Source of the DNA: Alphaproteobacteria bacterium
GTDB lineage: Bacteria > Pseudomonadota > Alphaproteobacteria > Caulobacterales > Aquidulcibacteraceae
Direction: 5' to 3'
Assembly: GCA_016124255.1 (NCBI GenBank)
Contig: WGOB01000012.1
Span: 54,682 to 118,681, forward strand
DNA: 64,000 nucleotides
The notes beneath the pieces were generated by a model, which did not search any database, had not been told where the DNA came from, and was given only the letters and a program-made list of their open reading frames with translations. How positions within the stretch are numbered: the stretch's first letter is position 1; each line of letters starts with the position of its first letter. This document shows positions 1,314 to 44,100 of the stretch, piece after piece. The translations under genes and the position numbers were made by a program.

Positions 1314-1618
1314 CTCCAGGCGAGCGGGCCCCTGCCCGTCGCCTTCAAAGCCTCTTCCGGTGAAGAGGCGCGTGCGGCTCGCGCCCCATGCGCGGCCGTG
1401 TTTGCGGGATGTCGTTTCCTTGGTTTGACATCCCGCCCCGGCGCGCAGGCTGCGCGGCGGGTAGCGGTATGGCGCTCGACTTTTTCTCCTACTCCCCGGA
1501 TTCGCCACAGGCGAAGTCCGGGGCCCACAAACTCAGTCGACTGTGGTTATGAGCTCCGGCGTGTCCGCTTGCGCGGCCATCCGGGGAAGGGTGGCGGCGG
1601 GCGCCCTTGTGTATGCGC

Positions 1619-1888
1619 TTAGCGGCGCAGGCCCAGTTTCTCGATCAAGGACTGATAACGCGCGACGTCGCGGTCCTTCAGATAGTCCAGAAGCCGACGG
1701 CGCTGAGACACCATCTTCAGCAGACCGCTGCGCGAGTGATTGTCCTTTTTGTGGGTCTTGAAGCGTTCGGTGAGGTTGGCGATCCGCTCGGAGAGGATCG
1801 CCACCTGAACTTCGGGCGAGCCGGTGTCTTGCTTGCCGGCGCCATATTCTTGGATGAGCGCGGATTTGCGCTCGGTCGAAATCGACAT
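1619..1888 (-). CDS. rpsO: 30S ribosomal protein S15
   Basis: 89-aa [19 protein letters not shown]...[26 protein letters not shown], a typical S15. Lies between truB and pnp. Confidence 0.97.
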
Positions 1889-1899
1889 CGTGGTCTCCT

Positions 1900-2850
1900 C
1901 TAAGCGAGATGGAACACGCGGGTGGGCTGGAATTGCCCGGCCCGCACGTCGCCCAGAGCCACGGGCCGGCCATCGCAGAGCGCCAAAGCCGCGCGGGAGG
2001 CGTCTTGGCCTGCCGCTTTGCGCGGTTTGAACTTGGCGCGCAGCTGCTCCACCACGTGGGGCAACAGCACGATGGCCCGTCCTTGTCTGAGCTTGAACGC
2101 GTCCTCGCCGCTGACGGCCAGCGCCGGGATGTCGGCCAGCGCGGTCTCAACGGGTTCGAGGCGTTCGGACGCGGCGCCCTTATGGCTCAAATCCTCCAAA
2201 AGGTCGAGGGTGACGGCGCGGCCTTCCTCGAACGGGCCGACGGCCAGTCGCCGCAGGCTGGCCACGTGGCCGGCGCACCCAAGTTGATCCGAGAGGTCGC
2301 GCGCGAAGGCGCGGACGTAAAAGCCCTTGCCGCAGCGCAGCAGGAAGGTCGCTTGATCCGGTGCGGCCTCAATCAACGCCGCCTCGTGGACCGTCACGGG
2401 ACGTGCCTTCAACGTCACCTCCTCGCCCGCCCGGGCGAGATCATAGGCGCGCTCGCCATCCACCTTGATGGCGCTGAAGGCAGGCGGGATCTGTGCAATC
2501 TCGCCGACGAAAGCCGGCAGCGCAGCGACGATGGCGGCTTCTGTGGGCCGCGCATCGCTTTCGGCGATGATTACGCCTTCGCGGTCCTGGGTGGCGGTGG
2601 AGACGCCCCAGCGGATCGTGAAGCGATAGGCTTTGTCCGCCTCCATCAGGAACGGGATGGTCTTGGTGGCCTCGCCAAGGGCGATCGGCAGCACGCCGGA
2701 CGCCAGCGGATCGAGCGTGCCGGCATGGCCGGCCTTATTGGCGTTGAAGATGCGGCGCACGCGCGCGACGGCGTCGGTGGAGGTGAGATTGTCGGGCTTG
2801 TCGAGCACGATCCAGCCGTCGACATCCACCCCCTTCTTGCGGCGCCCCAT
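1900..2850 (-). CDS. truB: tRNA pseudouridine(55) synthase
   Basis: 316-aa ORF with the [10 protein letters not shown] and [22 protein letters not shown] catalytic-Asp motif. rbfA-truB-rpsO synteny. Confidence 0.95.
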
Positions 2851-3266
2851 CAGGAATCCTCGCCCAATTTGTCGAGGTCGCGGGCGACTTCGGGGCGGCG
2901 AAGGACTTCGTCGATGTGGCTGGCCTCGTCGTATGAAACGTCGGCGACGAAGTGCAATTCGGGCGTGAACTTGAGATCAACGCTGCGCGCGAGACGACTG
3001 CGCAGGAAGCCGGACACGCGCGTGAGCGCGGCGGCGATCTTCTTGGGATCGTGTTCGCCGAGCGCGGCGACGAAGGCCGTCATGTGCTTGAGATCGGGCG
3101 AGGCGCGCACTTCGCCGACCGTCACGGACACGCCCTTGAGATCAGGGTCGCGCAGATCCTCACGCGCCAGGACCTCAACCAGCGCATGACGCACAAGCTC
3201 GCCGGCGCGCAATTGACGCTGGCTCGGCCCTGCGGCCTGTGAACGAGAAGAACGACGACGACTCAC
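2850..3266 (-). CDS. rbfA: Ribosome-binding factor A
   Basis: The C-terminal part of ORF 2850..3467 ([18 protein letters not shown]...[19 protein letters not shown]...LKFTPELHF) is RbfA-like. Start trimmed to GTG at 3266, because the longer ORF overlaps the lipoprotein gene ending at 3302. Its stop overlaps the truB start by 1 nt. Confidence 0.85.
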
Positions 3267-6586: not shown

Positions 6587-7282
6587 TCATTCACTGTCCT
6601 CGCGCCCCCTGTCCTCGCGCCCGCCCTCCCCGTCGCCAGACGCGGGGGCGGCGCGATCCACATCCTGGCCCGCGTCGGGGCGGCCCCCCTGGGAGGAGCG
6701 CCATGAATCGGGCCAAGAGGCGGGAACGATGGCGCGAAATCCGGAGAGGCGGCCCGTCTCGGCCGCCCAGCGCTGCGCCATACGCTCATCGAGCACGACG
6801 GCATGTACCACATGATCGCGGCCGAGCGCCACGCCCATTTCCGACGCGGTGAACGCAGCAGAGAGATGGGGAAGCGCGCCCCATAGACCAAGCGCCAGCT
6901 TGAAAAGCTTTTCGCGACCGTCTTCTGCGCCATCCGACGCCTCGATCATCGCATGGGGGCGCGCGCGCCGAATCGCCGCCTCCACCTGATCGAATCCGGT
7001 CGTGATCGCGCCGGCGCGCCGCATCAGGCCCAGCAGATCGAGACAGCGGCGCGCCAGCAGCGATTCGATCTGGTCCGCGAGCCCGGGCGCGACCTGCACG
7101 GGCTGCTTCAGGGAGCGGGCAAAACCGCCTCGCTTGATCGCGCGTGTCACGGCGTCGCGGGAGGCGCATACCCACACGCCCCGGCCCGGAAGCTTGGCGG
7201 CGACGTCCGGGACGATGCGGTCTTCGGGGCCGAGCACAAAGCGCACTAGGCGATCTTCGGGAAACACCTCGCCGGTCGCCAC
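6587..7282 (-). CDS. YlxR/DUF448-type RNA-binding protein fused to an L7Ae-like region (start codon unresolved)
   Basis: ATGEVFPEDRLVRFVLGPEDRIVPDVAAKLPGRGVWV matches the DUF448 core. Lies immediately upstream of infB, as usual. The conserved RRC motif is in frame upstream of the GTG listed in the track (see finding). Confidence 0.8.
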   Translation of the reverse strand: MATGEVFPEDRLVRFVLGPEDRIVPDVAAKLPGRGVWVCASRDAVTRAIKRGGFARSLKQPVQVAPGLADQIESLLARRCLDLLGLMRRAGAITTGFDQVEAAIRRARPHAMIEASDGAEDGREKLFKLALGLWGALPHLSAAFTASEMGVALGRDHVVHAVVLDERMAQRWAAETGRLSGFRAIVPASWPDSWRSSQGGRPDAGQDVDRAAPASGDGEGGREDRGREDSE

Positions 7283-7375
7283 ACAGCGGCGCTCGCGGCT
7301 CGCCTTTGCGGCGTCTTCATCGTCCGCGCTTGATTTCGCTCGGTGCTTGGCGCCGCGGGTGATGGCGATCCCCCA

Positions 7376-8506
<1,131 letters not shown>

Positions 8507-12080: not shown

Positions 12081-13514
12081 ATGCGCGAACATCTCAAATT
12101 CTACATCAACGGCGAGTGGGTGGACCCCGCTCAGCCGCGCACGCATGAGGTGATCAATCCGGCGACCGAAGAGCCGATCGCGAAAATCTCGCTCGGCTCG
12201 GCGGCGGACGTGAACAAGGCGGTGGCCGCGGCCAAGGCCGCGTTCGACGGCTTCTCGCGGACGTCCAAGAAGGAGCGCGCCGAACTCCTGCAGGCGATCA
12301 TCGGCGGCTATCAGAAGCGGATGGGCGAGATCGCCGAGACGATCAGCTCGGAAATGGGCGCGCCGATGTGGCTGGCGCAGGCGGCGCAGGCGCCGTCGGG
12401 CCTCGGGCACTTTGCTGAAGCGCTGAACCTGCTCAATTCCTACGAGTTCGAGCGCTCGATGAACGGCACGCGGATCCTGAAGGAGCCGGTGGGCGTGTGC
12501 GGGTTCATCACGCCGTGGAACTGGCCGATCAACCAGATCGCCTGCAAAGTGGCCCCTGCCCTGGCTGTCGGGTGCACGATGGTGCTGAAGCCATCGGAAC
12601 TGGCGCCGCTCAATGCGCTGCTGCTTGCGGAAATCCTGCACGAAGCCGGCGTGCCGAAGGGCGTGTTCAACCTGGTGAACGGCGACGGGCCGGGCGTGGG
12701 CGAAGCGCTCTCGCGCCATCCCGACATCGACATGATGAGCTTCACCGGCTCGACGCGCGCGGGCGTGCTGGTGGCGAAGGCTGCGGCGGAAACCGTGAAA
12801 CGCGTGTCGCAGGAGCTGGGCGGCAAGAGCGCCAACATCGTGCTGGAAGACGCCGACCTGCAGAAGGCCGTCTCTTCCGGCATGATCCAGATGGTCACGA
12901 ACTCGGGCCAAAGCTGCAACGCGCCCTCCCGCATGCTGGTGCCGCGCAAGCTGCATGACCAGGCGGCCGAGATCGCAGCCGCGACCGCCAAGGCGATCAA
13001 GGTGCAGGCGCCTGGCGAAGCCGAGCGCGGCGCGATCGGCCCGCTCGCCAACGCCAACCAATTCCAGAAGGTGCAGGCGCTCATCCAGAAGGGCATCGAC
13101 GAAGGCGCGACGCTGATGGCCGGCGGAACGGGGCGCCCGGAAGGCTTCAACCGCGGCTATTACGTGAAGCCGACGGTGTTCGCGAACGTCACCAACGACA
13201 TGACGATCGCGCGCGAGGAAATCTTCGGGCCGGTGCTCTCGATTCTGCCGTACGACACAGAAGAAGACGCGATCCGCATCGCCAACGACACCGTGTACGG
13301 ATTGTCCGGCTACGTGCAGTCGGGCTCGCTTGAGCATGCGCAGACCGTGGCCAAGCGCCTGCGGACGGGCAACGTGCACCTCAATGGCGCGGGCGCGGAC
13401 TTCAAGGCGCCGTTCGGCGGCTACAAGCAATCGGGCAATGGCCGCGAATGGGGCGAGTTCGGTCTTGAGGAATTCCTGGAGACCAAGGCCGTGCTTGGCT
13501 GGGCCGCACAATAG
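12081..13514 (+). CDS. NAD(P)-dependent aldehyde dehydrogenase
   Basis: 477-aa ORF with FTGSTRAG, ELGGKSANIV and NSGQSCNAPSR (catalytic Cys) motifs. Confidence 0.93.
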   Translation: MREHLKFYINGEWVDPAQPRTHEVINPATEEPIAKISLGSAADVNKAVAAAKAAFDGFSRTSKKERAELLQAIIGGYQKRMGEIAETISSEMGAPMWLAQAAQAPSGLGHFAEALNLLNSYEFERSMNGTRILKEPVGVCGFITPWNWPINQIACKVAPALAVGCTMVLKPSELAPLNALLLAEILHEAGVPKGVFNLVNGDGPGVGEALSRHPDIDMMSFTGSTRAGVLVAKAAAETVKRVSQELGGKSANIVLEDADLQKAVSSGMIQMVTNSGQSCNAPSRMLVPRKLHDQAAEIAAATAKAIKVQAPGEAERGAIGPLANANQFQKVQALIQKGIDEGATLMAGGTGRPEGFNRGYYVKPTVFANVTNDMTIAREEIFGPVLSILPYDTEEDAIRIANDTVYGLSGYVQSGSLEHAQTVAKRLRTGNVHLNGAGADFKAPFGGYKQSGNGREWGEFGLEEFLETKAVLGWAAQ

Positions 13515-13534
13515 GTCATCCAAAAAACGCGACG

Positions 13535-13568
13535 AACGCCGGGGCCTTCCGCCCCGGCGTTTTCGTTT
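13535..13568 (+). terminator. Intrinsic terminator after the aldehyde dehydrogenase gene
   Basis: AACGCCGGGGC-CTTCC-GCCCCGGCGTT followed by TTCGTTT. Confidence 0.75.
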
Positions 13569-13616
13569 CGGGGCAGTTTTCATTCCGCATTAGGCTTCTC
13601 GGCCTAGGGTGGGCGC

Positions 13617-14267
13617 ATGCAGGATGAGGCGCCCCCACCCACCGATGCGCCGTCGCGCGCCCACGCCGCGGCGTGGGAGGACGTCAGCGGCGGCCTGCAT
13701 CAGAGTCGTCCGCACCCGGCGCACGCGGCGCACCCGGCCGATCCGTTCGACGCCTTTGCAAGCGGCCACGACCTAACCGGCGATTTCGCCGACACGCCCT
13801 GCTCGGACGACGTCTACGCGTTGCTCGACGACGCCGGCGGGCGGTTCCGGATCGATCCAGACAGCGGCGTCGTTCGGCTGAGCGACGCGCTTCTGTTGCG
13901 CGAGGAATACGGCCGCGTGCACAGCGTGCGCATCCGTGCGCCCGGCGGCTACGAAGCGGCGTTCGATCTGCGCATCGCCGCGCCGCTGCCCGAAGCAGTG
14001 GACGCCAACGGCGAGGCGCTGTTTGCGGGACCCGACGCGCTGACCGAGCCGGCGCCGGTTTCGCCCGCATACGATTGGTCCACGATCGCTGCGGCGCTCG
14101 GCGCGCTCCGCGCCCGCACCGCGCCGTCCGCGCATGCGCCGTTCGGCGCCGCGCTTGTGGTTGCGCCGGAAACGCTCGCCGCACTCGACGGCGCGCCAGC
14201 GCCGCTCAGTCTCGACGCGCCCCTCCCCTCACTCGCCGGCGAAGACGCGATCTGGTCTGCGGCTTAG
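13617..14267 (+). CDS. Hypothetical protein with one cadherin-like repeat signature
   Basis: 216-aa ORF. Third codon positions are GC-rich in this frame. The segment GGRFRIDPDSGVVRLSDALLLREEYGRVHSVRIRA resembles a cadherin-repeat motif. No signal peptide. Confidence 0.5.
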   Translation: MQDEAPPPTDAPSRAHAAAWEDVSGGLHQSRPHPAHAAHPADPFDAFASGHDLTGDFADTPCSDDVYALLDDAGGRFRIDPDSGVVRLSDALLLREEYGRVHSVRIRAPGGYEAAFDLRIAAPLPEAVDANGEALFAGPDALTEPAPVSPAYDWSTIAAALGALRARTAPSAHAPFGAALVVAPETLAALDGAPAPLSLDAPLPSLAGEDAIWSAA

Positions 14268-14331
14268 GCCCCATTGCCAAGCGCTGCGCGAGGCGGGACA
14301 AGGCGGCAAATCGCGATCATGGAGGCGCGTC

Positions 14332-15615
14332 ATGGCGCAACGAACGTGGCGCAAGCGCGTGCTGGGAAACCGGCCGCTTTCGCCGGAAACGCTGATGATG
14401 GGCTACGGCTACGATCCGCAGCTCTCGGAAGGGTCGCTCAAGCCGCCACAATTCCAAACGTCGACGTTCGTCTTCAAGTCGGCCGAGGACGGGAAGAATT
14501 TCTTCGCGCAGATGCAGGGGCGCCGGAAGCTCGGGCCCGACGAAGAACCGGGCCTCGTCTATTCGCGGTTCAACAATCCCAATCTCGAAGTGCTGGAAGA
14601 CCGCCTCGCGATCTGGGACGAAGCGGAAGCGAGCCTCGCGTTCGCCTCCGGCATGGCCGCGATCTCAACATGCCTGTGGGCGTTCCTGCGGCCTGGCGAC
14701 GTGATCCTGCAGAGCCAACCGATCTATGGCGGCACCGAGACGCTGATCCATTCGATCATGCCGGAATTCGGCGTGCGCCAAGTGGGCTTTGAGGCCGAGC
14801 ACGGCGTCGACGCGATGCGTGCGGCCGCGGAGGAGGCCAAGCGCCTCGGGCGCGTCGGCGCTATCTTTCTTGAGACGCCGGCCAATCCGACGAACGCGCT
14901 TGTCGACATTGCTGCGGCGCGCGAAATTTCAGAGGCGCTCACCGCCGACGGCAAGCGCCCGCCTGTCATCGTCGACAACACGCTTCTGGGACCCGTGTTT
15001 TCCAGTCCGACGCGTCATGGCGCCGACATCGTCGTCACCTCGCTCACAAAATATGTCGGCGGGCATTCCGATCTCATCGCCGGCGGCGCCTCGGGCGCAA
15101 AGGAAATGCTGCAGCCGGTGCGGCGCATGCGGTCCACGCTGGGCACGATGTGCGATCCGCATACGGCGTGGCTGCTGATGCGCTCGCTGGAGACGCTGAA
15201 GCTGCGCATGGAGGCCGGCGCGCTCGGCGCGCGCAAGGTCGCCGAGTTCCTCGCCGCGCATCCGAAGATCGATAGCGTGTGGTTCCTCGATTTCCTGCCG
15301 GACGATCACCCCGATCGCGCGCTGCACCTGAAGCAGAACAAGAGCGCTGGCTCGACGTTCTCGTTCGAGGTGAAGGGCGGCGAGAAGGCCGCGTTCGCAT
15401 TGCTCGACCGGCTGCAGGTGATCAAGCTCGCTGTCAGCCTTGGCGGCACCGAGACGCTCGCGTCGCATCCCGCCGCGATGACGCATTCGGGCATGGACAA
15501 GGCGGCGCTGAAGCGCTTCTCGATCACGCCATCGCTGATCCGCGTGTCGATCGGCGTGGAGAATCCCGACGCCCTGATCGCCGATCTCGCGCAGGCGCTG
15601 GACGGGGTGGCGTGA
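14332..15615 (+). CDS. Cys/Met-metabolism PLP-dependent enzyme (cystathionine gamma-synthase / methionine gamma-lyase family)
   Basis: Trimmed from ORF 14134..15615 to the ATG at 14332, which is preceded by GGAGG. Carries the family motif TSLTKYVGGHSDLIAGG (PLP Lys). Confidence 0.88.
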   Translation: MAQRTWRKRVLGNRPLSPETLMMGYGYDPQLSEGSLKPPQFQTSTFVFKSAEDGKNFFAQMQGRRKLGPDEEPGLVYSRFNNPNLEVLEDRLAIWDEAEASLAFASGMAAISTCLWAFLRPGDVILQSQPIYGGTETLIHSIMPEFGVRQVGFEAEHGVDAMRAAAEEAKRLGRVGAIFLETPANPTNALVDIAAAREISEALTADGKRPPVIVDNTLLGPVFSSPTRHGADIVVTSLTKYVGGHSDLIAGGASGAKEMLQPVRRMRSTLGTMCDPHTAWLLMRSLETLKLRMEAGALGARKVAEFLAAHPKIDSVWFLDFLPDDHPDRALHLKQNKSAGSTFSFEVKGGEKAAFALLDRLQVIKLAVSLGGTETLASHPAAMTHSGMDKAALKRFSITPSLIRVSIGVENPDALIADLAQALDGVA

Positions 15616-15667
15616 CGCGCGTCGCGATACGCTCTTGCCTGCCGGCCTGAAAGGCCGCGGTTCAACC

Positions 15668-15898
15668 CTATTCCGGGCGCCAGAGATCCTTGTCGTTGAA
15701 GTGCGGGCCCAGGCGCGCGCCCTTGCCTTCGGCGGTCTCGATCAGGACTTCTGCGGCCTCGCGCAGCGTCTGCGCTTGCACATACGCCCGCTTCTGCTTG
15801 CCGCGCGGCGGCTTGATCTCAGTGTCGGAATGCATCGTCATGGCCATCAGCTGGTGCTCCCCTGCCCGCTTCGTGCAGGGATTCGGGCCGGGTTTCAT
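15668..15898 (-). CDS. Small hypothetical protein (76 aa)
   Basis: MKPGPNPCTKRAGEHQLMAMTMHSDTEIKPPRGKQKRAYVQAQTLREAAEVLIETAEGKG... with GC-rich third positions. The start is uncertain (15910, 15898 or internal Met codons). Confidence 0.45.
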   Translation of the reverse strand: MKPGPNPCTKRAGEHQLMAMTMHSDTEIKPPRGKQKRAYVQAQTLREAAEVLIETAEGKGARLGPHFNDKDLWRPE

Positions 15899-15927
15899 GC
15901 CGGGCGGCATCGGGTAGTGTTGATTCG

Positions 15928-17250
15928 ATGGCTGAACGCACCGCCGCCGCCTCTCGTTCCAACGATTTCGATCCCGCAATCGCCGCGGCGCATCAGGCGC
16001 TTTCGGAGCTTACGCCGATAGTGTTGCTCACAGGCCGCGCCGGCACAGGAAAAAGTCATTTCATCCGGGCGCTCGCGAACGAAGGCCGGGTTCCGCAGGC
16101 GATCCTGGCGCCGACGGGGCTCGCGGCGATGAATATCGGCGGGCAGACGGTGCATTCGTTCTTCGGGTTCCCGCCGCGGGCGCTGATCAATCACGCGGAG
16201 AAGCCGAACTGGTTCTTCCAGCGCAACGCCAAGCATCTGAAGCGGCTGATCGTGGACGAAGTCTCGATGCTGCGCGCGGACGTGCTCGACGCAATGGATT
16301 TCGCGCTGCGCGCGGCGCGCAAGAGCGTGCGGCCGTTCGGCGGCGTGCAGATGCTGCTGGTCGGCGATTTCTACCAGCTGCCGCCGGTGGTGCGCGGCGA
16401 CGAGGGGCGGCTGTTGGAGGATGCGGGTTATGCCAGCCCCTACGCGTTCTCCGCGCACGCGCTCAAGGACCCGCCGGTTGCGGCGTTCGAGTTGACCGAA
16501 GTGCGCCGGCAAACGGATGCGGATTTCATTGCGCTGCTCTCCGCGATCCGCGAGCGGCGCGGCGCGGGCGAGGCGGTCGAGGCGCTGAACGCGGCGTGCT
16601 TGGAGCGCAGGCTGAAGCAAAAGCCCGTGCTGCTGACGGCCACGAACGCGGTGGCGGATCGCTACAACGCCGCGGGCCTCGCCGCGCTGGCGGGCGACAC
16701 GGCGGTGTTCACCGGCGGTTTCGAGGGCGAGGCGCGAAAAAACAATAGTGCGGGCAATGTGAACGAGCGGCTGCCGGCGCCGATGGAGCTGGCGCTGAAG
16801 AAGGGCGCGCGGGTCATCTTCACGCAGAACGATTCCGAGGGGCGGTGGGTGAACGGCTCGCTCGGCACCGTGGAGGGCATGGACGCCGAGATCGTCCGTG
16901 TGCGGATGGATGATAGCGGAGAAATGGAGGATGTGTCGCGCTCGACCTGGCCGCAGGCCCGCTGGCAGTGGAACGAGACGACGCGCCAGATGGAGGTGAA
17001 GGAGGAGTTCAAGTACGTGCAATTCCCGCTCGCGCCGGCCTGGGCGCTGACGATCCACAAGGCGCAGGGCATGACGCTCGACAGCGTGGAGATCGACCTT
17101 GGGCGCGGCGCGTTCGCACCGGGGCAAACCTATGTGGCGCTCTCGCGCGCGCGCAGCATGGAGGGGCTGCGGCTCACACGGCCGCTGCGTGAAAGCGACG
17201 TCCGCGTCGATCCCGCGATCGCGGAGGGGCTGGCGCGGCTCGGGTTGTGA
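15928..17250 (+). CDS. SF1B DNA helicase of the Pif1/RecD-like family
   Basis: Walker A GRAGTGKS, Walker B LIVDEVSML, LLVGDFYQLPPV, and C-terminal ALTIHKAQGMTLDSVEIDL...QTYVALSRAR. Confidence 0.85.
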   Translation: MAERTAAASRSNDFDPAIAAAHQALSELTPIVLLTGRAGTGKSHFIRALANEGRVPQAILAPTGLAAMNIGGQTVHSFFGFPPRALINHAEKPNWFFQRNAKHLKRLIVDEVSMLRADVLDAMDFALRAARKSVRPFGGVQMLLVGDFYQLPPVVRGDEGRLLEDAGYASPYAFSAHALKDPPVAAFELTEVRRQTDADFIALLSAIRERRGAGEAVEALNAACLERRLKQKPVLLTATNAVADRYNAAGLAALAGDTAVFTGGFEGEARKNNSAGNVNERLPAPMELALKKGARVIFTQNDSEGRWVNGSLGTVEGMDAEIVRVRMDDSGEMEDVSRSTWPQARWQWNETTRQMEVKEEFKYVQFPLAPAWALTIHKAQGMTLDSVEIDLGRGAFAPGQTYVALSRARSMEGLRLTRPLRESDVRVDPAIAEGLARLGL

Positions 17251-17260
17251 AGAACACGCC

Positions 17261-17357
17261 GTCATTCCGGACGCGCCGTAGGCGCGATCCGGAACCTAGG
17301 GGGACGTAGATCGCTGCGGCCTCTGGGTTCCGGATCGTCGCTTCGCTCCGGAATGAC
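17261..17357. repeat. REP/MITE-like palindromic element, copy 1 (97 bp)
   Basis: Termini are GTCATTCCGG...CCGGAATGAC, with inner inverted GATCCGGAACC...GGGTTCCGGATC. Intergenic. Homologous to 23815-23927, 43988-44100 and 48120-48221. Confidence 0.85.
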
Positions 17358-17368
17358 GAAGTCTTGAG

Positions 17369-17452
17369 TTACTTCTTCGCCGCGCTCGCCTTCGGCTTTT
17401 CCTTTTTCGGCTTCCGCTTTTCCTTGGTCGGGCGTTGCTGACCTTTGGCCAT
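17369..17452 (-). CDS. 27-aa lysine-rich peptide
   Basis: Minus strand GAAGGAGG-N5-ATG, then MAKGQQRPTKEKRKPKKEKPKASAAKK-stop. Too short for the ORF track. Strong Shine-Dalgarno sequence. Confidence 0.5.
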   Translation of the reverse strand: MAKGQQRPTKEKRKPKKEKPKASAAKK

Positions 17453-17544
17453 GACGGCCTCCTTCGTTCAGAGAAAATCCTGGGCGCGTTTGACTTCGCG
17501 GGCAAGGGTTCGTCTCCTTCGCCACGGAACGCGGAGGACATGCG

Positions 17545-18429
17545 ATGGCGACGGGACGGGCGTTGGTGTTGGGCGGGGGCGGGCCTGTCGGCATCGCGTG
17601 GGAGAGCGGGCTGGCGGCGGGGCTCGCGGAAGAAGGCGTGGAGATCGCGCAGGCGGATCTGATTGTCGGCACGTCGGCTGGATCCTTCGTCGGCGCGCAG
17701 CTGGCGAGCGCGCGCAGCGCGCACTCGCTGGCGGAGGCGCAGATCGCGCAGGGGCGGCGCGAGGCGGAGGCGCGTGCGGCGGGCGCCGGCCATCCGCTCG
17801 GCAAAGCGCCGGACCTCCAGGGCCTGCTTGGGCTGATGGCGAAGGCGCCGGCGGACGGGCCGCCGGACGATGCGCTGATGGCGGAGTTCGGCGCCTATGC
17901 GCGCGGCGCCGAGACGATCAGCGAGGCGGATTTCATCAAGGGCTTCGGTTGGGTGGGTGAAGACGGGACGCCCTTCCCTGCCGGCTATCGTGCGACCACA
18001 ATCGATGCGGAGACGGGCGCGTTCCGGACCTGGGGCGCGGAGGACGGCGTTCCGCTCGGGCGCGCGGTCGCGTCGTCATGCTCCGTACCCGGCATATTTC
18101 CCCCGATCGCGATCAACGGGCGGCGTTATATCGACGGCGGCATGCGTACGCCGACCAACGCCGATCTCGTTGCGGGGCACGAGCGCGTGATCGTCGTCGC
18201 CGTCACGATCATGGGGCCGTTCGCGGAGTACATGCGCAAGCGTATGCAATGGGAGCTCGACGCGATCACCGCGGCCGGCGGGCAGGTGGAGCTGATCGTC
18301 CCCGACGCGCAGGCGCTGGACGCGTTCGGCGTGAACCTGATGGACGCGAGCCGGCGCGCGGAGGTGACGGAGGCGGGTTTGGCGCAGGGAAGGCGCGAGG
18401 CGGGGCGGATGCGCGGGGTGTGGGGTTAG
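17545..18429 (+). CDS. Patatin-like phospholipase
   Basis: LVLGGGGPVGIAWESG (oxyanion GGG), GTSAGS (GxSxG) and a DGG motif. Confidence 0.9.
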   Translation: MATGRALVLGGGGPVGIAWESGLAAGLAEEGVEIAQADLIVGTSAGSFVGAQLASARSAHSLAEAQIAQGRREAEARAAGAGHPLGKAPDLQGLLGLMAKAPADGPPDDALMAEFGAYARGAETISEADFIKGFGWVGEDGTPFPAGYRATTIDAETGAFRTWGAEDGVPLGRAVASSCSVPGIFPPIAINGRRYIDGGMRTPTNADLVAGHERVIVVAVTIMGPFAEYMRKRMQWELDAITAAGGQVELIVPDAQALDAFGVNLMDASRRAEVTEAGLAQGRREAGRMRGVWG

Positions 18430-19076
18430 GCGGCGGACTTTCCGCCCATGCTGCGAGCCTTCTCGGAAAACGCTTGTGACGCATCGTGCATCTTCCAGAT
18501 ACGATCCAACGCTGCCCTTTTGCTGGTGCCTTTGGCCATCTTGAACGCAAAGCGGCTCGCGATCTCAACAATGTGTTCGCGCGCCAGACTCTTGTCACGC
18601 TGCAGCGCGCGGAAGACCTTCTGAAACTCGTCGCCGTCGTGCAACGCGTCGGTAAGCGATTTCACATAAGCGCTCACCGTCGTTTCGGGCGCGGGTTGTT
18701 CGTCCCCCAAGACGGCCGCAGAGAGAGCCTCCATGTACGAGCGAATCGACATGGTCGGACGCTGAGTCAAAATCCTTTCCAGGTTCTTGATCGCCGCGTT
18801 CATCGACGGCTTTGCGGCTACGGACATGAACGGCTTGATAAGCTGAAGCGCATCCAAGAAGGTAGAGATCGATGGGCCGTCCGCCCGGGATTCCGCCGTG
18901 TCGGACATTAACGCACTTGCCTTGGACAGAGTCTCGATTGAGGCCGCCCCAAGACGATTCAGCCCTTGCGCGAAGGTGTAGACCGCGGTCGCGTGATCGG
19001 CAGCGCGCGCCGCAGCAAGCACGTCACCGTAGAGAACAAGAACTCGGGCTATCGCGTCCGTTCGCATTATTTCCAT
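18426..19076 (-). CDS. Hypothetical 216-aa protein, predicted all-helical, partner of the ParA-like ATPase
   Basis: ORF 8 bp downstream of 19084..20265 on the same strand, in the AT-richer stretch. No motif recognised. Confidence 0.6.
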   Translation of the reverse strand: MEIMRTDAIARVLVLYGDVLAAARAADHATAVYTFAQGLNRLGAASIETLSKASALMSDTAESRADGPSISTFLDALQLIKPFMSVAAKPSMNAAIKNLERILTQRPTMSIRSYMEALSAAVLGDEQPAPETTVSAYVKSLTDALHDGDEFQKVFRALQRDKSLAREHIVEIASRFAFKMAKGTSKRAALDRIWKMHDASQAFSEKARSMGGKSAA

Positions 19077-19083
19077 TTACGAA

Positions 19084-20265
19084 CTAAGCGCCTGAGAGGC
19101 GCAGTTCAACCTCGCGGCCTAGCCTGTCAAACATTTCGCGAACAGTCTCTCCGCCGTTCAGATAGGTCGGCGCCTCTCCAGCTTGGCTCGCAATAGCTGC
19201 CAGCCTCTGGATATAGGTGTCCGGCGGCAATAATTTGACGGGAGGCTCCATCAAATTGTTATCCTTCTGCACCCTCCCGAGCGCAGCTCTAATTGCCGCA
19301 ACGCCCTGTCGCTCGGCAACGGTCATCGGGGGATCGGCGTCTGGGTCGTCGTCCAGCCTCTTGCCGATGTTGTGGTTAGTCATCGATCCGACCACCCCCA
19401 ACAATTCAATGTGCGGACACACACCGCCGTTTCTAAGCTTGATCAATTCGTTCACAAATGTCGACACTGCGTCGCCTGACAGCTTATCGAGCACAGTGGG
19501 AATGAGCACATGCGTCGATGCGCAAAACGCCTGAACCGCGCCGATCGTCATGCGCGGCGGCGCATCGATGATGATCTTCGTGAACGCTGTCTGCACCTGT
19601 TGGCTCAACAGTATCTTTGCGAGGCGATATCGGACATCGCCGCCCTCCTCCCCCAAGAGCCAGCGAACCAGCACGCGGTTCTCGACCGCCGCGACATCGT
19701 AGTACGCTGTCAGCGCCTTTGCGCGAGACATGTCATTCACCGGCGCGAGGATGTCGAGGAATTCGCCCGGAGCCATGTCGGCGGCAAGCGTTCTTGCGGT
19801 TTTGCTCTGGCCCGCGAGCGGAAGCATGTGCTCGCGATGCACCAGCATCGATGACAGAGAGCCTTGAAAATCCAAGTCGATGAGGAGCAACCGCTCCTCT
19901 GAGCTTGTGTTGTGGAAGTGCGCCGCCAGGTTCGCTGCGATCGTCGTCTTGCCGACACCTCCCTTCAGATTAGCAATTGTAAGAATCGGAATGCTGTTTC
20001 GCATCCGCAGCATGTACTGCTCGGCGCTTTCGGGAAATTCGATCGGGTCGTCCAGCCAAACGCCCCGCGAATTTACGGCTTCCAGCGCTCGCTCGAGGCG
20101 CACTTCCGCCGACCAGGATCGTCGAAGTCGTGTCCCTGCACGCGAGAAGAATTCCCGGATTGGTCTGATTGCGATCGCCGCCAGGGTCAGAATCAGCGCC
20201 GCGACGACGCTAATTACAATCTCGTTTGACAGGGCTAGGGCGATCCTCTGGCCAACATCCCCCAT
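19084..20265 (-). CDS. Membrane-anchored ParA/MinD-class (deviant Walker A) P-loop ATPase
   Basis: N-terminal hydrophobic helix IVISVVAALILTLAAIAI, then ILTIANLKGGVGKTTIAANL (KGGxxGKT), LLLIDLDFQGSLS and IIIDAPPRM (Walker B). Confidence 0.8.
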   Translation of the reverse strand: MGDVGQRIALALSNEIVISVVAALILTLAAIAIRPIREFFSRAGTRLRRSWSAEVRLERALEAVNSRGVWLDDPIEFPESAEQYMLRMRNSIPILTIANLKGGVGKTTIAANLAAHFHNTSSEERLLLIDLDFQGSLSSMLVHREHMLPLAGQSKTARTLAADMAPGEFLDILAPVNDMSRAKALTAYYDVAAVENRVLVRWLLGEEGGDVRYRLAKILLSQQVQTAFTKIIIDAPPRMTIGAVQAFCASTHVLIPTVLDKLSGDAVSTFVNELIKLRNGGVCPHIELLGVVGSMTNHNIGKRLDDDPDADPPMTVAERQGVAAIRAALGRVQKDNNLMEPPVKLLPPDTYIQRLAAIASQAGEAPTYLNGGETVREMFDRLGREVELRLSGA

Positions 20266-20319
20266 CTGCGCCTCCCGCTTTACAGGAGAGTAAGCTTCAA
20301 CGGCGAGTTGCGAGTCAAA

Positions 20320-20394
20320 TGGAGCGGGTGATGAGATTCGAACTCACGACCCTCACGTTGGCAACGTGATGCTCTACCCCTGAGCTACACCCGC
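20320..20394 (-). tRNA. tRNA-Gly (anticodon GCC), CCA encoded
   Basis: The minus strand reads GCGGGTGTAGCTCAGGGGTAGAGCATCACGTTGCCAACGTGAGGGTCGTGAGTTCGAATCTCATCACCCGCTCCA. The cloverleaf arms pair, and the anticodon loop is TTGCCAA. Confidence 0.95.
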
Positions 20395-42234: not shown

Positions 42235-42762
42235 CTAGGAGGAATCGGCGAAGCGCGGCGGCGGCGGCGGCGCGCGTTCAATCGGCAGCGACGAAGGCGG
42301 ACGCGTCATCACAGGGGTGACGAGCGGGAGAAATCCGCGCTTCAAACGCTTGAGCAGGCGCGCCGCGAGAGCATCGATGCGCGTGTGGACGGCGCGCAGC
42401 GCCGCGATGCGCGCGGCAAGGCCAAGCGCGGGGCGGCGGACGTCGCGGCGGATGGGGCCGTAGAGAATGCGCGCGATGCGCCGGCCGCGCCGCTGCAGCC
42501 GCGCCCCGTTGCGGCGATCATGGAGACGCATCGCCAGCGGGCGCATCTTGAACGACCCATGCGCATGGATCGCGCGCCAAGCGACGACGCCGAGGATAGC
42601 CTGTTCGATGACGCTGAGGCGGCGCTGCACCAGGGCGCGGACGGCGGCATCGGCCTCCAGGACGCCGCCGATCAACGGCAGCGCCTGCACCAGCCACGCA
42701 AGCCACAGCTGCGCCCAGAGGGCGAGACGGGTGATGCGGGCGGGTGTCGGCGGCGCGGACAT
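42235..42762 (-). CDS. Hypothetical protein with N-terminal hydrophobic helix
   Basis: 175-aa ORF. GC-rich third positions in this frame. The competing plus-strand ORF is Arg-rich low complexity. Confidence 0.5.
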   Translation of the reverse strand: MSAPPTPARITRLALWAQLWLAWLVQALPLIGGVLEADAAVRALVQRRLSVIEQAILGVVAWRAIHAHGSFKMRPLAMRLHDRRNGARLQRRGRRIARILYGPIRRDVRRPALGLAARIAALRAVHTRIDALAARLLKRLKRGFLPLVTPVMTRPPSSLPIERAPPPPPRFADSS

Positions 42763-42929
42763 GGGCGCTCCGATCGTCGCACGCGGCGCAGCCGGTCTGA
42801 TCCGCCCTGCCCTATCCGCGGTGTTGCGGGAGGAATCGGTGGCAGGGCCGAGATGTCGGCGGCGGCGGCTCTTTGCCGGGAGCGGACATTCGGCTCAAAT
42901 CGGAGTAAGATTTTCAGCTTCAGGTCTCG

Positions 42930-43928: not shown

Positions 43929-43987
43929 CCGGTCACCCGACAATGTCCGCCTTGGGGCCAGAGGCGGACCATGGCGCGCCTCGCGGC

Positions 43988-44100
43988 GTCATTCCAGACG
44001 CGCACAGCGCGATCGGGAAACGCAGGTGATCGAAGGGCGCGGCGTGAGCCCCTGGATTCCGAGTTCGCCCCGGATCAAGTCCGGGGCGCCCCGGAATGAC
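43988..44100. repeat. REP/MITE-like palindromic element, copy (113 bp)
   Basis: GTCATTCCAGACGCGCACAGCGCGATCGGGAAAC...CCGGGGCGCCCCGGAATGAC. Intergenic. Confidence 0.8.

What the first reader, a model, noticed from the sequence alone, without database searches (positions are those of the whole stretch)
18426..20394. AT-richer two-gene module beside tRNA-Gly: membrane-anchored ParA/MinD-class ATPase plus an unknown helical partner
Seen:
- The stretch between the patatin stop (18429) and the 3' end of tRNA-Gly(GCC) (20320) is visibly less GC-rich than its flanks.
- It holds exactly two co-directional genes 8 bp apart.
- Gene 1 (19084-20265, 393 aa) has one N-terminal TM helix, an about 60-aa linker, and then a complete deviant-Walker-A ATPase (KGGVGKT, DLDFQGS, IIIDAPP).
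- Gene 2 (18426-19076, 216 aa) has no motif I can recognise and looks all-helical.

Established: the bona fide chromosomal parAB pair is elsewhere (45362-47400), so this ATPase is not the partition ATPase. The 3' sides of tRNA genes are hotspots for acquired DNA.

Inference: this is an acquired accessory module of unknown function. It could be a defence, conflict or element-maintenance system in which a membrane-tethered ParA-like NTPase works with a novel partner. I see no ParB-like HTH, nuclease, integrase or att repeat, so the module does not match any named system I know.
Basis: partly seen in the sequence, partly recalled or inferred. Interest (0 to 1): 0.7.

Follow-up and report, generated by a model that had tools for sequence, protein, structure and literature searches.

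The report
Mobile membrane-anchored ParA ATPase gene pair
Next to a glycine tRNA gene this bacterium has picked up a two-gene cassette, a membrane-anchored ParA-type ATPase plus a small protein with a previously unseen fold. The cassette is widespread, has never been studied, and behaves in genomes like a defence or conflict system, not like a DNA-partition system.

Summary
Window 18430-20319 is the most AT-rich stretch of the 64 kb (GC 0.585 vs 0.674, z = -4.5). It holds exactly two minus-strand genes just 3' of tRNA-Gly(GCC).

Gene 1 (393 aa) has a conserved N-terminal TM helix, a stalk helix and a complete Soj/ParA-fold ATPase. Gene 2 (213 aa from the conserved start) is not an orphan. An exhaustive profile search finds 828 representative clusters.

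In all 13 distinct loci examined the two genes are adjacent and co-directional. The partner's conserved core is an ~85-aa C-terminal domain ending in G-[KR]-[ST]-A-A. Short 88-aa partners consist of this domain alone. Its fold matches nothing in PDB or BFVD.

The pair is absent from this site in 80 related loci and sits at other sites in related genomes. Its GC3 is 9-33 points below its neighbours everywhere. It rides on four different mobile backbones, often beside defence genes. It is only 43-44%/30% identical between two genomes whose adjacent UvrB is 86% identical.

It has no orthologues on 72,556 plasmids, 50,697 phages or 2.9 M viral contigs. It has no centromere repeats and lacks the ParA D-x-R DNA-binding motif.

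Best reading: an acquired, fast-diversifying conflict cassette. Its function is untested.

The parts
20320..20394 (-). tRNA-Gly(GCC). Its 3' end abuts the acquired segment. It is a conserved backbone landmark and integration hotspot.
   Evidence: ARAGORN and Rfam RF00005 at 70.3 bits. The same tRNA follows DUF6065 in about 45 related loci. In L003 an integrase sits directly beside it.
20266..20319 (-). 54-nt leader between the tRNA and the ATPase start. It has a GGGAGG Shine-Dalgarno 7 nt before the ATG. No sigma-70-like promoter or terminator was detected on this strand.
   Evidence: Sequence read; promoter/terminator scan.
19084..20265 (-). Gene 1: 393-aa membrane-anchored ParA/Soj-fold ATPase.
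   Evidence: ORF. Pfam AAA_31 4.1e-19 and CbiA 3.6e-11. PHROG 164 'ParA-like' 7.6e-32. AF2 model pLDDT 95.3. Foldseek against Soj 2bek: E 1.3e-14, TM 0.85. More than 1000 full-length homologues.
20164..20232 (-). N-terminal transmembrane helix (about aa 12-34), followed by an Arg/Lys-rich stretch, so the ATPase domain is predicted to be cytoplasmic.
   Evidence: Kyte-Doolittle 19-aa maximum of 2.66. A hydrophobic segment of at least 1.6 is present in 59 of 61 homologues. It forms part of one continuous helix, aa 15-65, in the model.
20071..20163 (-). Cytoplasmic stalk helix (about aa 35-65) linking the TM to the ATPase. Its length varies across the family, with Walker A at residue 81 to 183.
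   Evidence: Model secondary structure; Walker A positions per homologue.
19942..19965 (-). Deviant Walker A, KGGVGKTT (aa 101-108), including the signature lysine K101.
   Evidence: Translation; invariant in 61 of 61 homologues.
19858..19878 (-). Walker A' / switch I, DLDFQGS (aa 130-136).
   Evidence: D130, D132, Q134 and G135 are invariant.
19552..19575 (-). Walker B, IIIDAPPR (aa 231-238), with the family-specific invariant R238.
   Evidence: D234, P237 and R238 are invariant.
19216..19377 (-). Family-specific acidic insertion (aa 297-350, ...NIGKRLDDDPDADPP...AERQG...). It replaces the ParA/Soj D-x-R DNA-binding motif after strand GVVGSM.
   Evidence: Family alignment. The HMMER alignment to solved ParA-type ATPases ends at residue 295.
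18426..19067 (-). Gene 2: 213-aa basic all-helical partner. The ORF extends to 19076, but the conserved start is at 19067.
   Evidence: 38-40% identical (BLASTP) to the partners downstream of the homologous ATPases. 828 representative clusters at E<=1e-3. AF2 pLDDT 91.4 with 10 helices. No fold match in PDB (best E 2.0) or BFVD (best E 0.21). Median family pI 9.5.
18429..18689 (-). Conserved C-terminal domain of the partner (aa 127-213). This is the only part present in the 88-aa short partners.
   Evidence: Alignments. Identity of the window protein to the family is 53-60% here against 20-29% in the N-terminal parts. The sub-threshold Pfam DUF7646 match falls on this region.
18429..18446 (-). 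C-terminal tail GGKSAA-COOH, an instance of the family motif G-[KR]-[ST]-A-A at the extreme C-terminus.
   Evidence: 144 of 165 family representatives end in AA and 12 in AG; about 125 match G[KR][ST]AA. The tail has lower confidence and is non-helical in the model. The last 30 aa carry a median net charge of +5.

Best explanation
Shown: the segment is a horizontally acquired, self-contained two-gene cassette of a large, uncharacterised family.

Gene 1 is an ATP-dependent dimerisation switch of the ParA/Soj fold. It is permanently tethered to the inner membrane by an N-terminal TM helix and stalk. It has lost the ParA DNA-binding motif.

Gene 2 is its dedicated partner. A fast-evolving N-terminal two-thirds is joined to a conserved basic C-terminal domain with an exposed G-[KR]-[ST]-A-A tail.

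Inferred: the cassette is a conflict module, either anti-phage/anti-plasmid defence or an addiction-type system. The partner's conserved C-domain and tail dock on the cytoplasmic ATPase, perhaps on its acidic insertion, and set its ATP/dimer state. The variable N-terminal part provides specificity. The C-terminal Ala-Ala makes the partner proteolytically labile, as with a ClpXP-type degron. A trigger such as an invader, or loss of partner synthesis, would shift the membrane-bound ATPase into its active dimeric state. That would arrest the cell or exclude the invader at the membrane.

The cassette is not a DNA-partition system.
For: - **Acquired:** The segment has the lowest GC of the window (z = -4.5), and GC3 of 0.70-0.72 against 0.84-0.92 for neighbours. 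It is absent from the same conserved backbone in 80 relatives. It sits at different sites in related genomes.
- **Obligate pair:** The genes are adjacent and co-directional in 13 of 13 loci, usually with a 4-nt overlap. This was found starting from either gene. Twelve further ATPase/partner hits share contig lengths.
- **Family size:** More than 1000 ATPases and 828 partner clusters.
- **Active switch:** Walker A, A' and B are invariant, and the fold is Soj-like.
- **Membrane instead of DNA:** The TM is present in 59 of 61 homologues. There is no D-x-R motif, and an acidic insertion takes its place.
- **Conflict-like behaviour:**
  - GC3 is 9-33 points below neighbours in all 12 loci measured.
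  - Copies that are 74-83% identical sit on four different mobile backbones: a TIR/HigBA island, a tRNA-Gly integrase island, a T4SS element and a relaxase/ArdC element.
  - Immediate neighbours include ThsB-type TIR (4.8e-11), PDC-S67 (1.6e-14) and PDC-M48B (1.7e-55). GmrSD and HEPN lie just beyond uvrB, two genes from the pair in L176.
  - The pair is 43-44%/30% identical at the same uvrB-adjacent site in two genomes whose UvrB is 86% identical.
  - The partner's N-terminal part diverges much faster than its C-domain.
- **Tail:** The G[KR][ST]AA-COOH motif is conserved in about 125 of 165 representatives. That C-terminal Ala-Ala marks ClpXP substrates (ssrA tag, Caulobacter CtrA) is established knowledge and was not tested here.
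Against: - No experiment has been done, and there is no recognisable effector domain (nuclease, NADase or pore-former) beyond the TM helix.
- About half of the 13 contexts are ordinary chromosomal neighbourhoods with no mobile or defence genes within the adjacent few genes (PriA, RpoD/DnaG, PheT, hydantoinase).
- The PADLOC neighbours PDC-S67 and PDC-M48 are themselves untested candidates.
- The PDC-M28B similarity covers only the generic ParA core.
- A uniform GC3 deficit could partly reflect a family-intrinsic codon bias, not recent transfer.
- The degron reading of the AA tail and the docking of the tail on the acidic insertion are inferences. No complex model could be run.
Confidence: 0.45

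Rival explanations
1. Housekeeping or niche-specific membrane positioning/assembly system. A membrane-bound ParA/MinD-type ATPase and its activator or adaptor (like MinD-MinE, BcsQ-BcsR or FlhG) place or regulate an envelope machine in some alphaproteobacteria. The patchy distribution would reflect lineage-specific loss and gain.
For: Several loci lie among core genes with no mobile genes nearby: PriA (L006), RpoD/DnaG (L011), PheT/ribosomal genes (L008) and hydantoinase (L010, L012). The ATPase core is under strong purifying selection. Known membrane-associated members of the superfamily work with small partners, and BcsRQ appears among the fold matches.
Against: - No conserved third gene or cargo operon exists in any locus.
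- GC3 is atypical even in the 'core' contexts, for example L007 at 0.39-0.42 against 0.72-0.74 and L012 at 0.56-0.61 against 0.87-0.89.
- The pair is absent from 80 related backbones and sits at different sites in related genomes.
- The pair is 43-44%/30% identical next to an 86%-identical UvrB.
- The curated MinD and BcsQ models are far below cutoff (26.5 vs 212.9; 36.4 vs 157.85).
Confidence: 0.2
2. Purely selfish addiction (toxin-antitoxin-like) module. The membrane ATPase is toxic when free. The labile partner neutralises it. The cassette persists by post-segregational killing and gives the host no defence benefit.
For: - The genes are tightly coupled, with a 4-nt overlap in most long-partner loci.
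- The conserved exposed C-terminal AA tail is compatible with a protease degron.
- The pair is carried on ICE/IME/island backbones beside the TA pairs HigBA, HipBA and HicB.
- It shows low GC and patchy distribution.
Against: At 393 aa with a fully conserved ATPase cycle, gene 1 is unlike known type II toxins. The gene order (putative toxin first) is the minority arrangement. No autoregulatory DNA-binding domain is recognisable in the partner. Many TA-like modules in fact act in defence, so this rival overlaps the best explanation.
Confidence: 0.15
3. Maintenance or transfer function for integrative/conjugative elements. This would be a non-canonical partition or relaxosome-recruitment pair (like VirC1-VirC2 or Soj of PAPI-1/ICEclc-type islands) that tethers element DNA to the membrane or T4SS. 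The window copy would be a remnant of a decayed tRNA-Gly island.
For: - Four of the closest relatives sit on mobile backbones. L005 is next to VirB4/8/9/10-type genes and L173 next to a relaxase.
- L003 shows an integrase island at the same tRNA-Gly.
- The ATPase's nearest solved relatives are partition ATPases.
- The partner is basic (pI 9.5).
Against: - There are no orthologues on 72,556 plasmids, 50,697 phages or 2.9 M viral contigs.
- There are no iterated centromere-like repeats near any copy.
- The D-x-R DNA-binding motif is missing.
- A permanent TM anchor is incompatible with a nucleoid diffusion-ratchet.
- Many copies lie far from any element gene.
- The window has no integrase or att repeat, and the pair's orientation relative to the tRNA is opposite to that in L003.
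- VirC1 scores 11.9 against a cutoff of 24.
Confidence: 0.1
4. Plasmid-incompatibility (anti-plasmid) factor in the manner of ParI. An island-borne orphan ParA-family ATPase would interfere with the partition machinery of incoming plasmids. This is a special case of the conflict reading.
For: There is a precedent for a genomic-island ParA that destabilises IncP-7 plasmids in a Walker-A-dependent way (Miyakoshi 2012, as summarised in PMC9178275). The pair is island-borne and mobile.
Against: ParI is described there as an orphan ParA. I found no mention of a TM anchor or a dedicated partner for it. This family's ATPase shares only 29-32% core identity with plasmid ParAs and lacks the DNA-binding motif, so mimicry of a plasmid ParA is not obvious.
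Confidence: 0.07

Closest known systems
Soj/ParA type I partition ATPases (Thermus Soj 1wcv/2bek; ParA 8ray)
   Same: Same fold (TM-score 0.80-0.85 to the target, E 1e-14 to 3e-15). Same deviant Walker A with signature lysine, plus Walker A' and B. A small co-transcribed downstream partner.
   Different: - An N-terminal TM helix and stalk of about 90 aa precede the core.
- The D-x-R motif is replaced by an acidic insertion.
- The partner is not ParB, RHH or HTH and has no known fold.
- There are no centromere repeats.
- The family is absent from plasmids and phages.
- NCBIfam ParA_partition scores 63.9 against a cutoff of 180.
MinD-MinE and BcsQ-BcsR (membrane-associated ParA/MinD ATPases with small regulators)
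   Same: An ATPase of the same superfamily working at the inner membrane with a small dedicated partner. BcsRQ structures appear among the fold matches.
   Different: - Membrane attachment here is a permanent N-terminal TM helix. MinD uses a reversible C-terminal amphipathic helix.
- The curated models are far below cutoff: MinD 26.5 vs 212.9 and BcsQ 36.4 vs 157.85.
- There are no min or bcs genes nearby.
- The pair shows mobile, low-GC, diversifying behaviour.
- JGI's automatic 'BcsQ' labels on family members are therefore not supported.
ParI of the Pseudomonas putida KT2440 genomic island
   Same: A ParA-family ATPase carried on a genomic island with a conflict-type role, destabilising IncP-7 plasmids in a Walker-A-dependent way (PMC9178275).
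   Different: ParI is described as an orphan ParA. No TM anchor or dedicated conserved partner is reported in the text I read.
VirC1-VirC2 of Agrobacterium Ti plasmids
   Same: A ParA-like ATPase plus a partner of about 200 aa that acts at the membrane/T4SS (my own knowledge). One relative (L005) lies beside T4SS genes.
   Different: Pfam VirC1 scores 11.9 against 24 and NCBIfam VirC1 14 against 313. VirC1 has no TM. Only 1 of 13 contexts has T4SS genes, and one more has a relaxase. The family is absent from all PLSDB plasmids.
PADLOC candidate system PDC-M28 (subunit B)
   Same: All 61 family ATPases hit the PDC-M28B profile, best E 1.2e-11.
   Different: The matches cover only the generic ParA core, profile positions about 104-278 of 438. 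No PADLOC model matches any long or short partner. PDC-M28 is itself an untested candidate, and I found no paper on it.
Pfam DUF7646 (PF24657)
   Same: An 85-position model whose positions 32-80 align to the partner's conserved C-domain.
   Different: It is always below the gathering score: 13.6 against 27 bits for the window protein. It matches 4 of 10 and 2 of 7 members, best E 0.0015. No literature was found.

Membership tests
ParA/MinD (deviant Walker A, SIMIBI) ATPase superfamily | Deviant Walker A KGGxGK[ST] with signature lysine, plus Walker A' and Walker B aspartates | tested here: met
   KGGVGKT (aa 101-107), D130/D132 and D234 are invariant in 61 of 61 homologues. Pfam AAA_31 scores 69.6 against 27 and CbiA 43.6 against 25.4.
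ParA/MinD (deviant Walker A, SIMIBI) ATPase superfamily | Soj/MinD-type alpha/beta fold | tested here: met
   AF2 model pLDDT 95.3. Foldseek against 2bek gives E 1.3e-14 and TMt 0.85; 254 PDB matches have E<=1e-3.
ParABS-type partition system (type Ia/Ib) | ATPase reaches the curated partition-ParA model cutoffs | tested here: not met
   NF041546 scores 63.9 against 180, TIGR03453 RepA 51 against 348, and SopA 19.9 against 725.
ParABS-type partition system (type Ia/Ib) | Partner is a centromere-binding protein (ParB HTH/CTPase or RHH) | tested here: not met
   No Pfam, NCBIfam, PHROG or PADLOC family matches. The PDB profile search gives only spurious or weak hits. No fold match in PDB or BFVD.
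ParABS-type partition system (type Ia/Ib) | Iterated centromere-like repeats next to the operon | tested here: not met
   Only short two-copy, chance-level repeats occur in six loci.
ParABS-type partition system (type Ia/Ib) | Non-specific DNA-binding arginine (D-x-R after the strand equivalent to Soj R189; motif assignment from my own knowledge) | tested here: not met
   The family has ...GVVGSMT followed by an acidic insertion. No conserved D-x-R is present, and the alignment to solved ParAs ends at residue 295.
ParABS-type partition system (type Ia/Ib) | Occurs on plasmids, phage-plasmids or near chromosomal origins | tested here: not met
   There are no orthologues in 72,556 plasmids or 50,697 phages, only ParA cores at 29-32% identity. 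Only generic ParAs occur in 2.9 M viral contigs. The true parAB is at 45.4-47.4 kb.
MinD/MinE | Curated MinD model; reversible C-terminal amphipathic membrane-targeting helix; minC/minE neighbours | tested here: not met
   TIGR01968 scores 26.5 against 212.9. The anchor is an N-terminal TM helix. No min genes occur in any locus.
BcsQ/BcsR cellulose module | Curated BcsQ model and bcs operon context | tested here: not met
   TIGR03371 scores 36.4 against 157.85 and Pfam CBP_BcsQ 21.2 against 21.3. No bcs genes are nearby in any locus.
VirC1/VirC2 | VirC1 model; T4SS/relaxosome context | tested here: not met
   PF07015 scores 11.9 against 24 and NF010423 14 against 313. T4SS genes occur in 1 of 13 contexts and a relaxase in 1 of 13.
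PADLOC PDC-M28 candidate defence system | Full-length match to subunit B and presence of subunit A | tested here: not met
   The subunit B match is core-only (profile about 104-278 of 438). No PADLOC hit exists for any partner.
Pfam DUF7646 | Score above the gathering threshold (27 bits) | tested here: inconclusive
   The window partner scores 13.6 bits. The best E among 17 members scanned is 0.0015. The hit falls on the conserved C-domain every time. An HMM-HMM comparison was not possible.
tRNA-linked genomic island | Tyrosine integrase next to the tRNA and a direct repeat of the tRNA 3' end (attL/attR) | tested here: not met
   The window has no repeat of the last 18-26 nt of the tRNA even with 3 mismatches and no integrase. 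The integrase feature is met in relative L003, where an integrase lies 130 nt from the same tRNA; an att repeat was not searched for there.
Type II toxin-antitoxin / addiction module | Toxicity of one product neutralised by a labile cognate partner | not testable with these tools
   Only indirect evidence exists: a 4-nt gene overlap in most loci and the conserved C-terminal AA tail.
Anti-phage defence system (operational definition) | Statistical enrichment next to known defence genes, and experimental protection | not testable with these tools
   Defence-type neighbours occur in 4-6 of 13 contexts.

The most novel reading that the evidence does not exclude
The pair is a new class of bacterial immune or conflict system in which a permanently membrane-tethered ParA-type ATPase is itself the effector. 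The basic helical partner, with its hyper-variable N-terminal part, senses an invader at the inner membrane: a phage or plasmid protein, or DNA. Alternatively the partner is destroyed through its Ala-Ala tail. The ATPase then dimerises in the membrane, and this either collapses membrane function (abortive infection) or physically blocks entry or segregation of foreign DNA. That would extend the ParA/MinD 'positioning' ATPases into immunity and add a protein fold with no solved relative.
Probability: 0.3. Interest if true: 0.8.

Novelty: new variant of a known kind. Interest (0 to 1): 0.6.

Why it matters
ParA/MinD ATPases are textbook positioning machines that work by reversible binding to the nucleoid or membrane. 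This family breaks that rule in three ways. Its membrane anchor is permanent, it has lost the DNA-binding motif, and its obligate partner has a fold not seen in PDB or in predicted viral structures.

The family is large: more than 1000 ATPases and 828 partner clusters at 50% identity. It is completely unannotated; the partner is labelled 'hypothetical' and the ATPase is mislabelled 'BcsQ' or 'chromosome partitioning'. It behaves like a mobile, rapidly diversifying conflict gene set.

If it is a defence or addiction system, it would be a mechanistically new one with no nuclease, NADase or classical pore-former. If it is instead a positioning system, it would identify an unknown membrane process in environmental alphaproteobacteria. 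Either way the cassette is only 1.9 kb with two genes, so it is directly testable by heterologous expression.

Tried and rejected
1. **Partner as an orphan.** The first word-indexed search found only the self hit. This was rejected after downstream genes of ATPase homologues aligned at 38-40% and the exhaustive profile search found 828 clusters.
2. **Family libraries for the partner.** Nothing scored above threshold in Pfam, NCBIfam, PHROGs or PADLOC. YfdX (E 0.02) and the DUF7646 hints are below threshold.
3. **TAL-effector hit (3ugm, 9.4e-9).** This is a sum of sub-threshold matches of one helix-loop-helix to many TAL repeats, with 0 stretches passing on their own. I treat it as a curiosity, not homology.
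4. **Internal repeats in the partner.** hhalign of non-overlapping segments gave no signal, with probability at most 1.4%.
5. **A conserved third gene.** None was found among upstream and downstream ORFs.
6. **Att repeat or integrase in the window.** None exists. A tblastx hint at window 299-1048 turned out to be PNPase.
7. **Centromere-like repeats.** None were found.
8. **Plasmid, phage or viral-contig homes.** None were found.
9. **PDC-M28 membership.** The match is to the core only.
10. **P0279 fusion.** This 1414-aa protein carrying the C-domain has no Pfam domains and was uninformative.
11. **RNA elements.** Only the tRNA was found. No sigma-70 promoter or terminator was found on the coding strand.
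12. **Literature.** Searches for DUF7646, PDC-M28, PF13614 with defence, and ParA-like with anti-phage or membrane-anchored terms found no description of this module.
13. **Organism names.** The cluster look-up gave almost no taxonomy.
14. **Empty site.** No relative had patatin or PIF1 beside tRNA-Gly, so the exact insertion junction could not be mapped.

Full report
**1. The observation**

ARAGORN and Rfam place one tRNA-Gly(GCC) at 20320-20394 on the minus strand. Between its 3' end and the stop of a patatin gene (17545-18429; Pfam Patatin 8.3e-19) lie two minus-strand ORFs, 19084-20265 (393 aa) and 18426-19076 (216 aa).

The 1890-nt stretch 18430-20319 has GC 0.585. Thirty-one non-overlapping segments of the same length elsewhere in the window average 0.674 (sd 0.020), so z = -4.5. 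The lowest-GC sliding window of the whole 64 kb starts at 18460 (profile). At third codon positions the two genes have GC3 of 0.70 and 0.72, against 0.84-0.92 for seven flanking genes.

The canonical chromosomal parA (46609-47400, 263 aa, E 1.9e-75 to ParA 8ray) and parB (E 2.9e-71 to Caulobacter ParB 6t1f) are indeed elsewhere.

The only correction concerns gene 2. Its conserved start is the second ATG (nt 19067), giving 213 aa, as in the public record for this MAG, 'Alphaproteobacteria bacterium', locus GC206_03560.

**2. Gene 1**

Pfam AAA_31 (4.1e-19) and CbiA (3.6e-11), PHROG 164 'ParA-like partition protein' (7.6e-32), and a string of far-sub-threshold NCBIfam hits place it in the ParA/MinD superfamily. 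It belongs to none of the curated subfamilies:
- ParA_partition scores 63.9 against a cutoff of 180.
- MinD scores 26.5 against 212.9.
- BcsQ scores 36.4 against 157.85.
- RepA scores 51 against 348.

An AlphaFold2 model built on 61 homologues is confident (pLDDT 95.3, pTM 0.88). It shows one continuous helix spanning aa 15-65, a short linker, and a Soj-type core. Foldseek gives ParA 8ray (E 2.9e-15) and Thermus Soj 2bek (E 1.3e-14, TM 0.85) as best matches.

The hydrophobic N-terminal segment is a family feature. In 59 of 61 homologues the best 19-residue window upstream of Walker A has a Kyte-Doolittle mean of at least 1.6 (median 2.14). It is followed by Arg/Lys-rich sequence, which predicts a cytoplasmic ATPase. 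Walker A (K101, K106), A' (D130, D132) and B (D234) are invariant, so the ATP switch is maintained.

Two things separate the family from partition ParAs. First, the HMMER alignment to solved ParA-type proteins stops at residue 295. Second, ParA/Soj proteins carry the D-x-R motif with the non-specific DNA-binding arginine after the strand GVVGSM (motif assignment from my own knowledge of Soj R189). This family instead has an acidic insertion...NIGRKLEEDPDxDPP...AERxG....

**3. Gene 2**

The first search returned only the self hit. However, the ~212-aa genes directly downstream of three ATPase homologues align with it over their full length. They are 39-40% identical, with E 9e-45 for one pair. 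A profile search then retrieved 21 proteins. An exhaustive HMMER scan of 1.84 billion representatives found 828 clusters at E<=1e-3 and 434 at E<=1e-10, mostly 205-225 aa.

Conservation is concentrated in the C-terminal ~85 residues. The window protein is 53-60% identical to the family there, against 20-29% in the N-terminal parts. More distant ATPases are followed by 88-aa proteins that are this domain alone.

The domain ends in a striking tail. Of 165 representatives, 144 end in Ala-Ala and 12 in Ala-Gly, and about 125 match G-[KR]-[ST]-A-A-COOH. The protein is basic (median pI 9.5), and the last 30 residues carry a median charge of +5.

The AF2 model is confident (pLDDT 91.4) and all-helical, with ten helices and a lower-confidence, non-helical tail. 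It has no significant match in PDB (best E 2.0) or among predicted viral structures (best E 0.21). No internal repeats are detectable. Pfam DUF7646 aligns to the conserved domain but always below threshold.

**4. Co-occurrence**

I examined 13 distinct loci: the window, L001/2, L003/4/9, L005, L006, L007, L008, L010, L011, L012, L173-175, L176/177 and one JGI contig. In every one the ATPase is immediately followed on the same strand by a long or short partner. In most long-partner loci the genes overlap by 4 nt. Two of these loci were reached by starting from distant partners.

No third gene is conserved.

**5. Acquired, mobile, diversifying**

The Trx-TPR / tRNA_edit / DUF6065 / tRNA-Gly(GCC) backbone to the right of the module is conserved in 80 metagenomic relatives, with DUF6065 52-79% identical (best aligned segment). 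None of them has the ATPase, the partner, patatin or the PIF1-like helicase nearby. In 23 of 24 relatives with sequence beyond the tRNA, nothing there matches the window's left flank. The tRNA's 3' side is therefore a synteny breakpoint with variable content.

Related genomes hold the pair elsewhere. L001's flank is syntenic with window 25.4-30.5 kb (Amt, FtsK), and the pair lies 3 kb beyond ftsK. L003 has the same right-hand backbone and tRNA-Gly, but with an integrase 130 nt from the tRNA and the pair 3.4 kb inside a larger island in the opposite orientation. The window itself has no integrase and no repeat of the tRNA 3' end.

In all 12 loci measured, the pair's GC3 is 9-33 points below neighbouring genes. 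This holds even beside core genes, for example L007 at 0.39-0.42 against 0.72-0.74 and L012 at 0.56-0.61 against 0.87-0.89.

Copies that are 74-83% (ATPase) and 64-71% (partner) identical sit on four different backbones:
- L001 has HigBA, a ThsB-type TIR and a terminase.
- L003 is a tRNA-Gly island with an integrase and a resolvase.
- L005 has HipBA, Endonuclease_1 and a T4SS.
- L173 has ArdC, HicB and a relaxase.

Conversely, L007 and L176 both have the pair directly upstream of uvrB. Their UvrB proteins are 86% identical, but the ATPases are 43-44% and the partners 30% identical. Either the cassette has been replaced at one site, or it evolves far faster than its neighbour.

**6. Defence-type neighbours**

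- The uncalled ORF directly upstream of the pair in L001/L002 is a ThsB-type TIR (Pfam 4.8e-11, above cutoff; PADLOC ThsB 2.2e-11).
- The ORF directly upstream in L003 matches PADLOC candidate PDC-S67 (1.6e-14).
- The convergent ORF directly downstream in L005 matches PDC-M48B (1.7e-55).
- In L176, uvrB is followed by GmrSD_N and HEPN genes.
- L007 has a caspase-domain protein 5.5 kb away.
- The TA pairs HigBA, HipBA and HicB are nearby in three loci.

Against this, about half of the contexts show only ordinary chromosomal genes. The PDC systems are untested candidates. All 61 ATPases hit PADLOC PDC-M28B (best 1.2e-11), but only over the generic ParA core, and no partner hits anything in PADLOC.

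**7. What it is not**

A partition system is unlikely for these reasons:
- tblastn finds no partner and no orthologous ATPase on 72,556 plasmids or 50,697 phages. The only hits are three generic ParAs at 29-32% over the core.
- 2.9 M viral contigs yield no partner and only generic ParAs at 22-34%.
- No locus has iterated repeats near the operon.
- The DNA-binding motif is gone.
- A fixed TM anchor is at odds with a nucleoid ratchet.

MinD, BcsQ and VirC1 memberships fail their curated thresholds and lack the expected neighbours.

**8. Most likely mechanism (inference)**

The invariant ATP-sandwich residues imply an ATP-dependent dimer, as in all ParA/MinD proteins. The TM helix fixes that switch in the membrane. 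The obligate, translationally coupled partner is the natural regulator of the cycle, as ParB, MinE, BcsR and McdB are for their ATPases.

I propose that its conserved basic C-domain and tail contact the ATPase, with the acidic insertion as an obvious candidate surface. I also propose that the fast-evolving N-terminal part confers specificity. The exposed, near-universal C-terminal Ala-Ala resembles ClpXP-type degrons (ssrA tag, Caulobacter CtrA; established knowledge, not tested here). It suggests that partner level is proteolytically controlled.

Together with the genomic behaviour, this points to a conflict module, meaning defence or addiction. In this model, loss or engagement of the partner switches the membrane ATPase on. 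The output would be membrane damage or growth arrest, or exclusion of foreign DNA at the membrane.

I put about 0.45 on the conflict reading as a whole, and much less on any particular output. A housekeeping membrane-positioning role (about 0.2), a purely selfish addiction module (about 0.15), an ICE maintenance or transfer role (about 0.1) and a ParI-like anti-plasmid role (about 0.07) remain open.

**9. Novelty**

I found no paper describing this module. Public annotations are 'hypothetical protein', 'AAA family ATPase', 'ParA family protein', or automatic 'BcsQ' and 'chromosome partitioning' labels.

The ATPase is a new, membrane-anchored branch of a well-known superfamily. The partner is an unannotated family with no structural relative. 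I therefore rate it a new variant of a known kind, a ParA/MinD-type two-component ATPase module, and not categorically new. It is of above-average interest because the family is large, compact, directly testable, and shows the genomic hallmarks of conflict systems.

Noticed in passing
L002:2-718 (+); same ORF uncalled in L001 at about 7250-8000 (+): The gene caller missed a ThsB-type TIR-domain protein in L001. It sits directly upstream of the pair (Pfam ThsB_TIR 4.8e-11, PADLOC ThsB 2.2e-11). No ThsA was seen within the locus.
   Followed up: partly
L003:7264-7815 (+) and L005:5962-7514 (-): ORFs immediately flanking the pair match the PADLOC candidate systems PDC-S67 (1.6e-14, nearly full length) and PDC-M48B (1.7e-55, full length). 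An adjacent 218-aa ORF is possibly the PDC-M48 partner.
   Followed up: no
window 15928-18429 (+): A PIF1-like SF1 helicase (Pfam PIF1 9e-25; partial PADLOC PDC-S68/RecD-like hits) and a patatin phospholipase lie directly beside the module. They have native GC but are absent from the tRNA-Gly flank of all 80 relatives. They may be an older, ameliorated acquisition at the same hotspot.
   Followed up: partly
window about 42667-44800: This is the only other stretch of the window where a 1.9-kb sliding window falls below GC 0.62. It lies just beside the parAB region. I did not examine it.
   Followed up: no
P0279 (1414 aa), residues 1275-1356: A large low-complexity protein with no Pfam domain carries the partner's C-terminal domain (E 1.1e-20). 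A Gly-rich hydrophobic tail follows it in place of the AA end. The partner's best, non-significant, viral fold match was a phage internal virion protein. A phage-borne mimic is conceivable but unsupported.
   Followed up: partly
window 18490-18600 (partner aa about 156-192): The partner motif L-x-K-D-D-V-V-E-I-A-S-R-F...K-S-T-S-K-K-x-A-L-E-R-I resembles a single TAL-effector repeat (LTPxQVVAIAS..GGKQALETV). This produces a summed hit to 3ugm (9.4e-9) with no individually significant stretch. It is probably convergent helix-loop-helix similarity.
   Followed up: partly
L176:12099-13846 (+): GmrSD_N (DUF262) and HEPN (RiboL-PSP/MAE_28990) genes with GC3 of 0.44-0.47 lie immediately after uvrB. 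That gives two separate low-GC insertions flanking a core gene.
   Followed up: no
L018:1359-2863, L025:9253-10753, L029:9247-10753: DUF6065 is tandemly duplicated in several relatives, with the second copy 56-57% identical to the window protein. In some relatives a Peptidase_M19 gene lies between DUF6065 and the tRNA-Gly.
   Followed up: no
L071 downstream of tRNA-Gly (locus about 13300-16200) vs window 1-2866: In one more distant relative the PNPase region begins about 4.5 kb after tRNA-Gly, against about 19 kb in the window. This suggests that much of window 3-20 kb may be variable relative to that lineage.
   Followed up: no
L010:9607-13251 and L012:5662-9413: Two divergent versions of the pair (ATPases 38% identical; one short partner, one long) both sit beside hydantoinase/oxoprolinase genes. 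Those genes are themselves only 31% identical. This could be coincidence or a preferred neighbourhood.
   Followed up: partly
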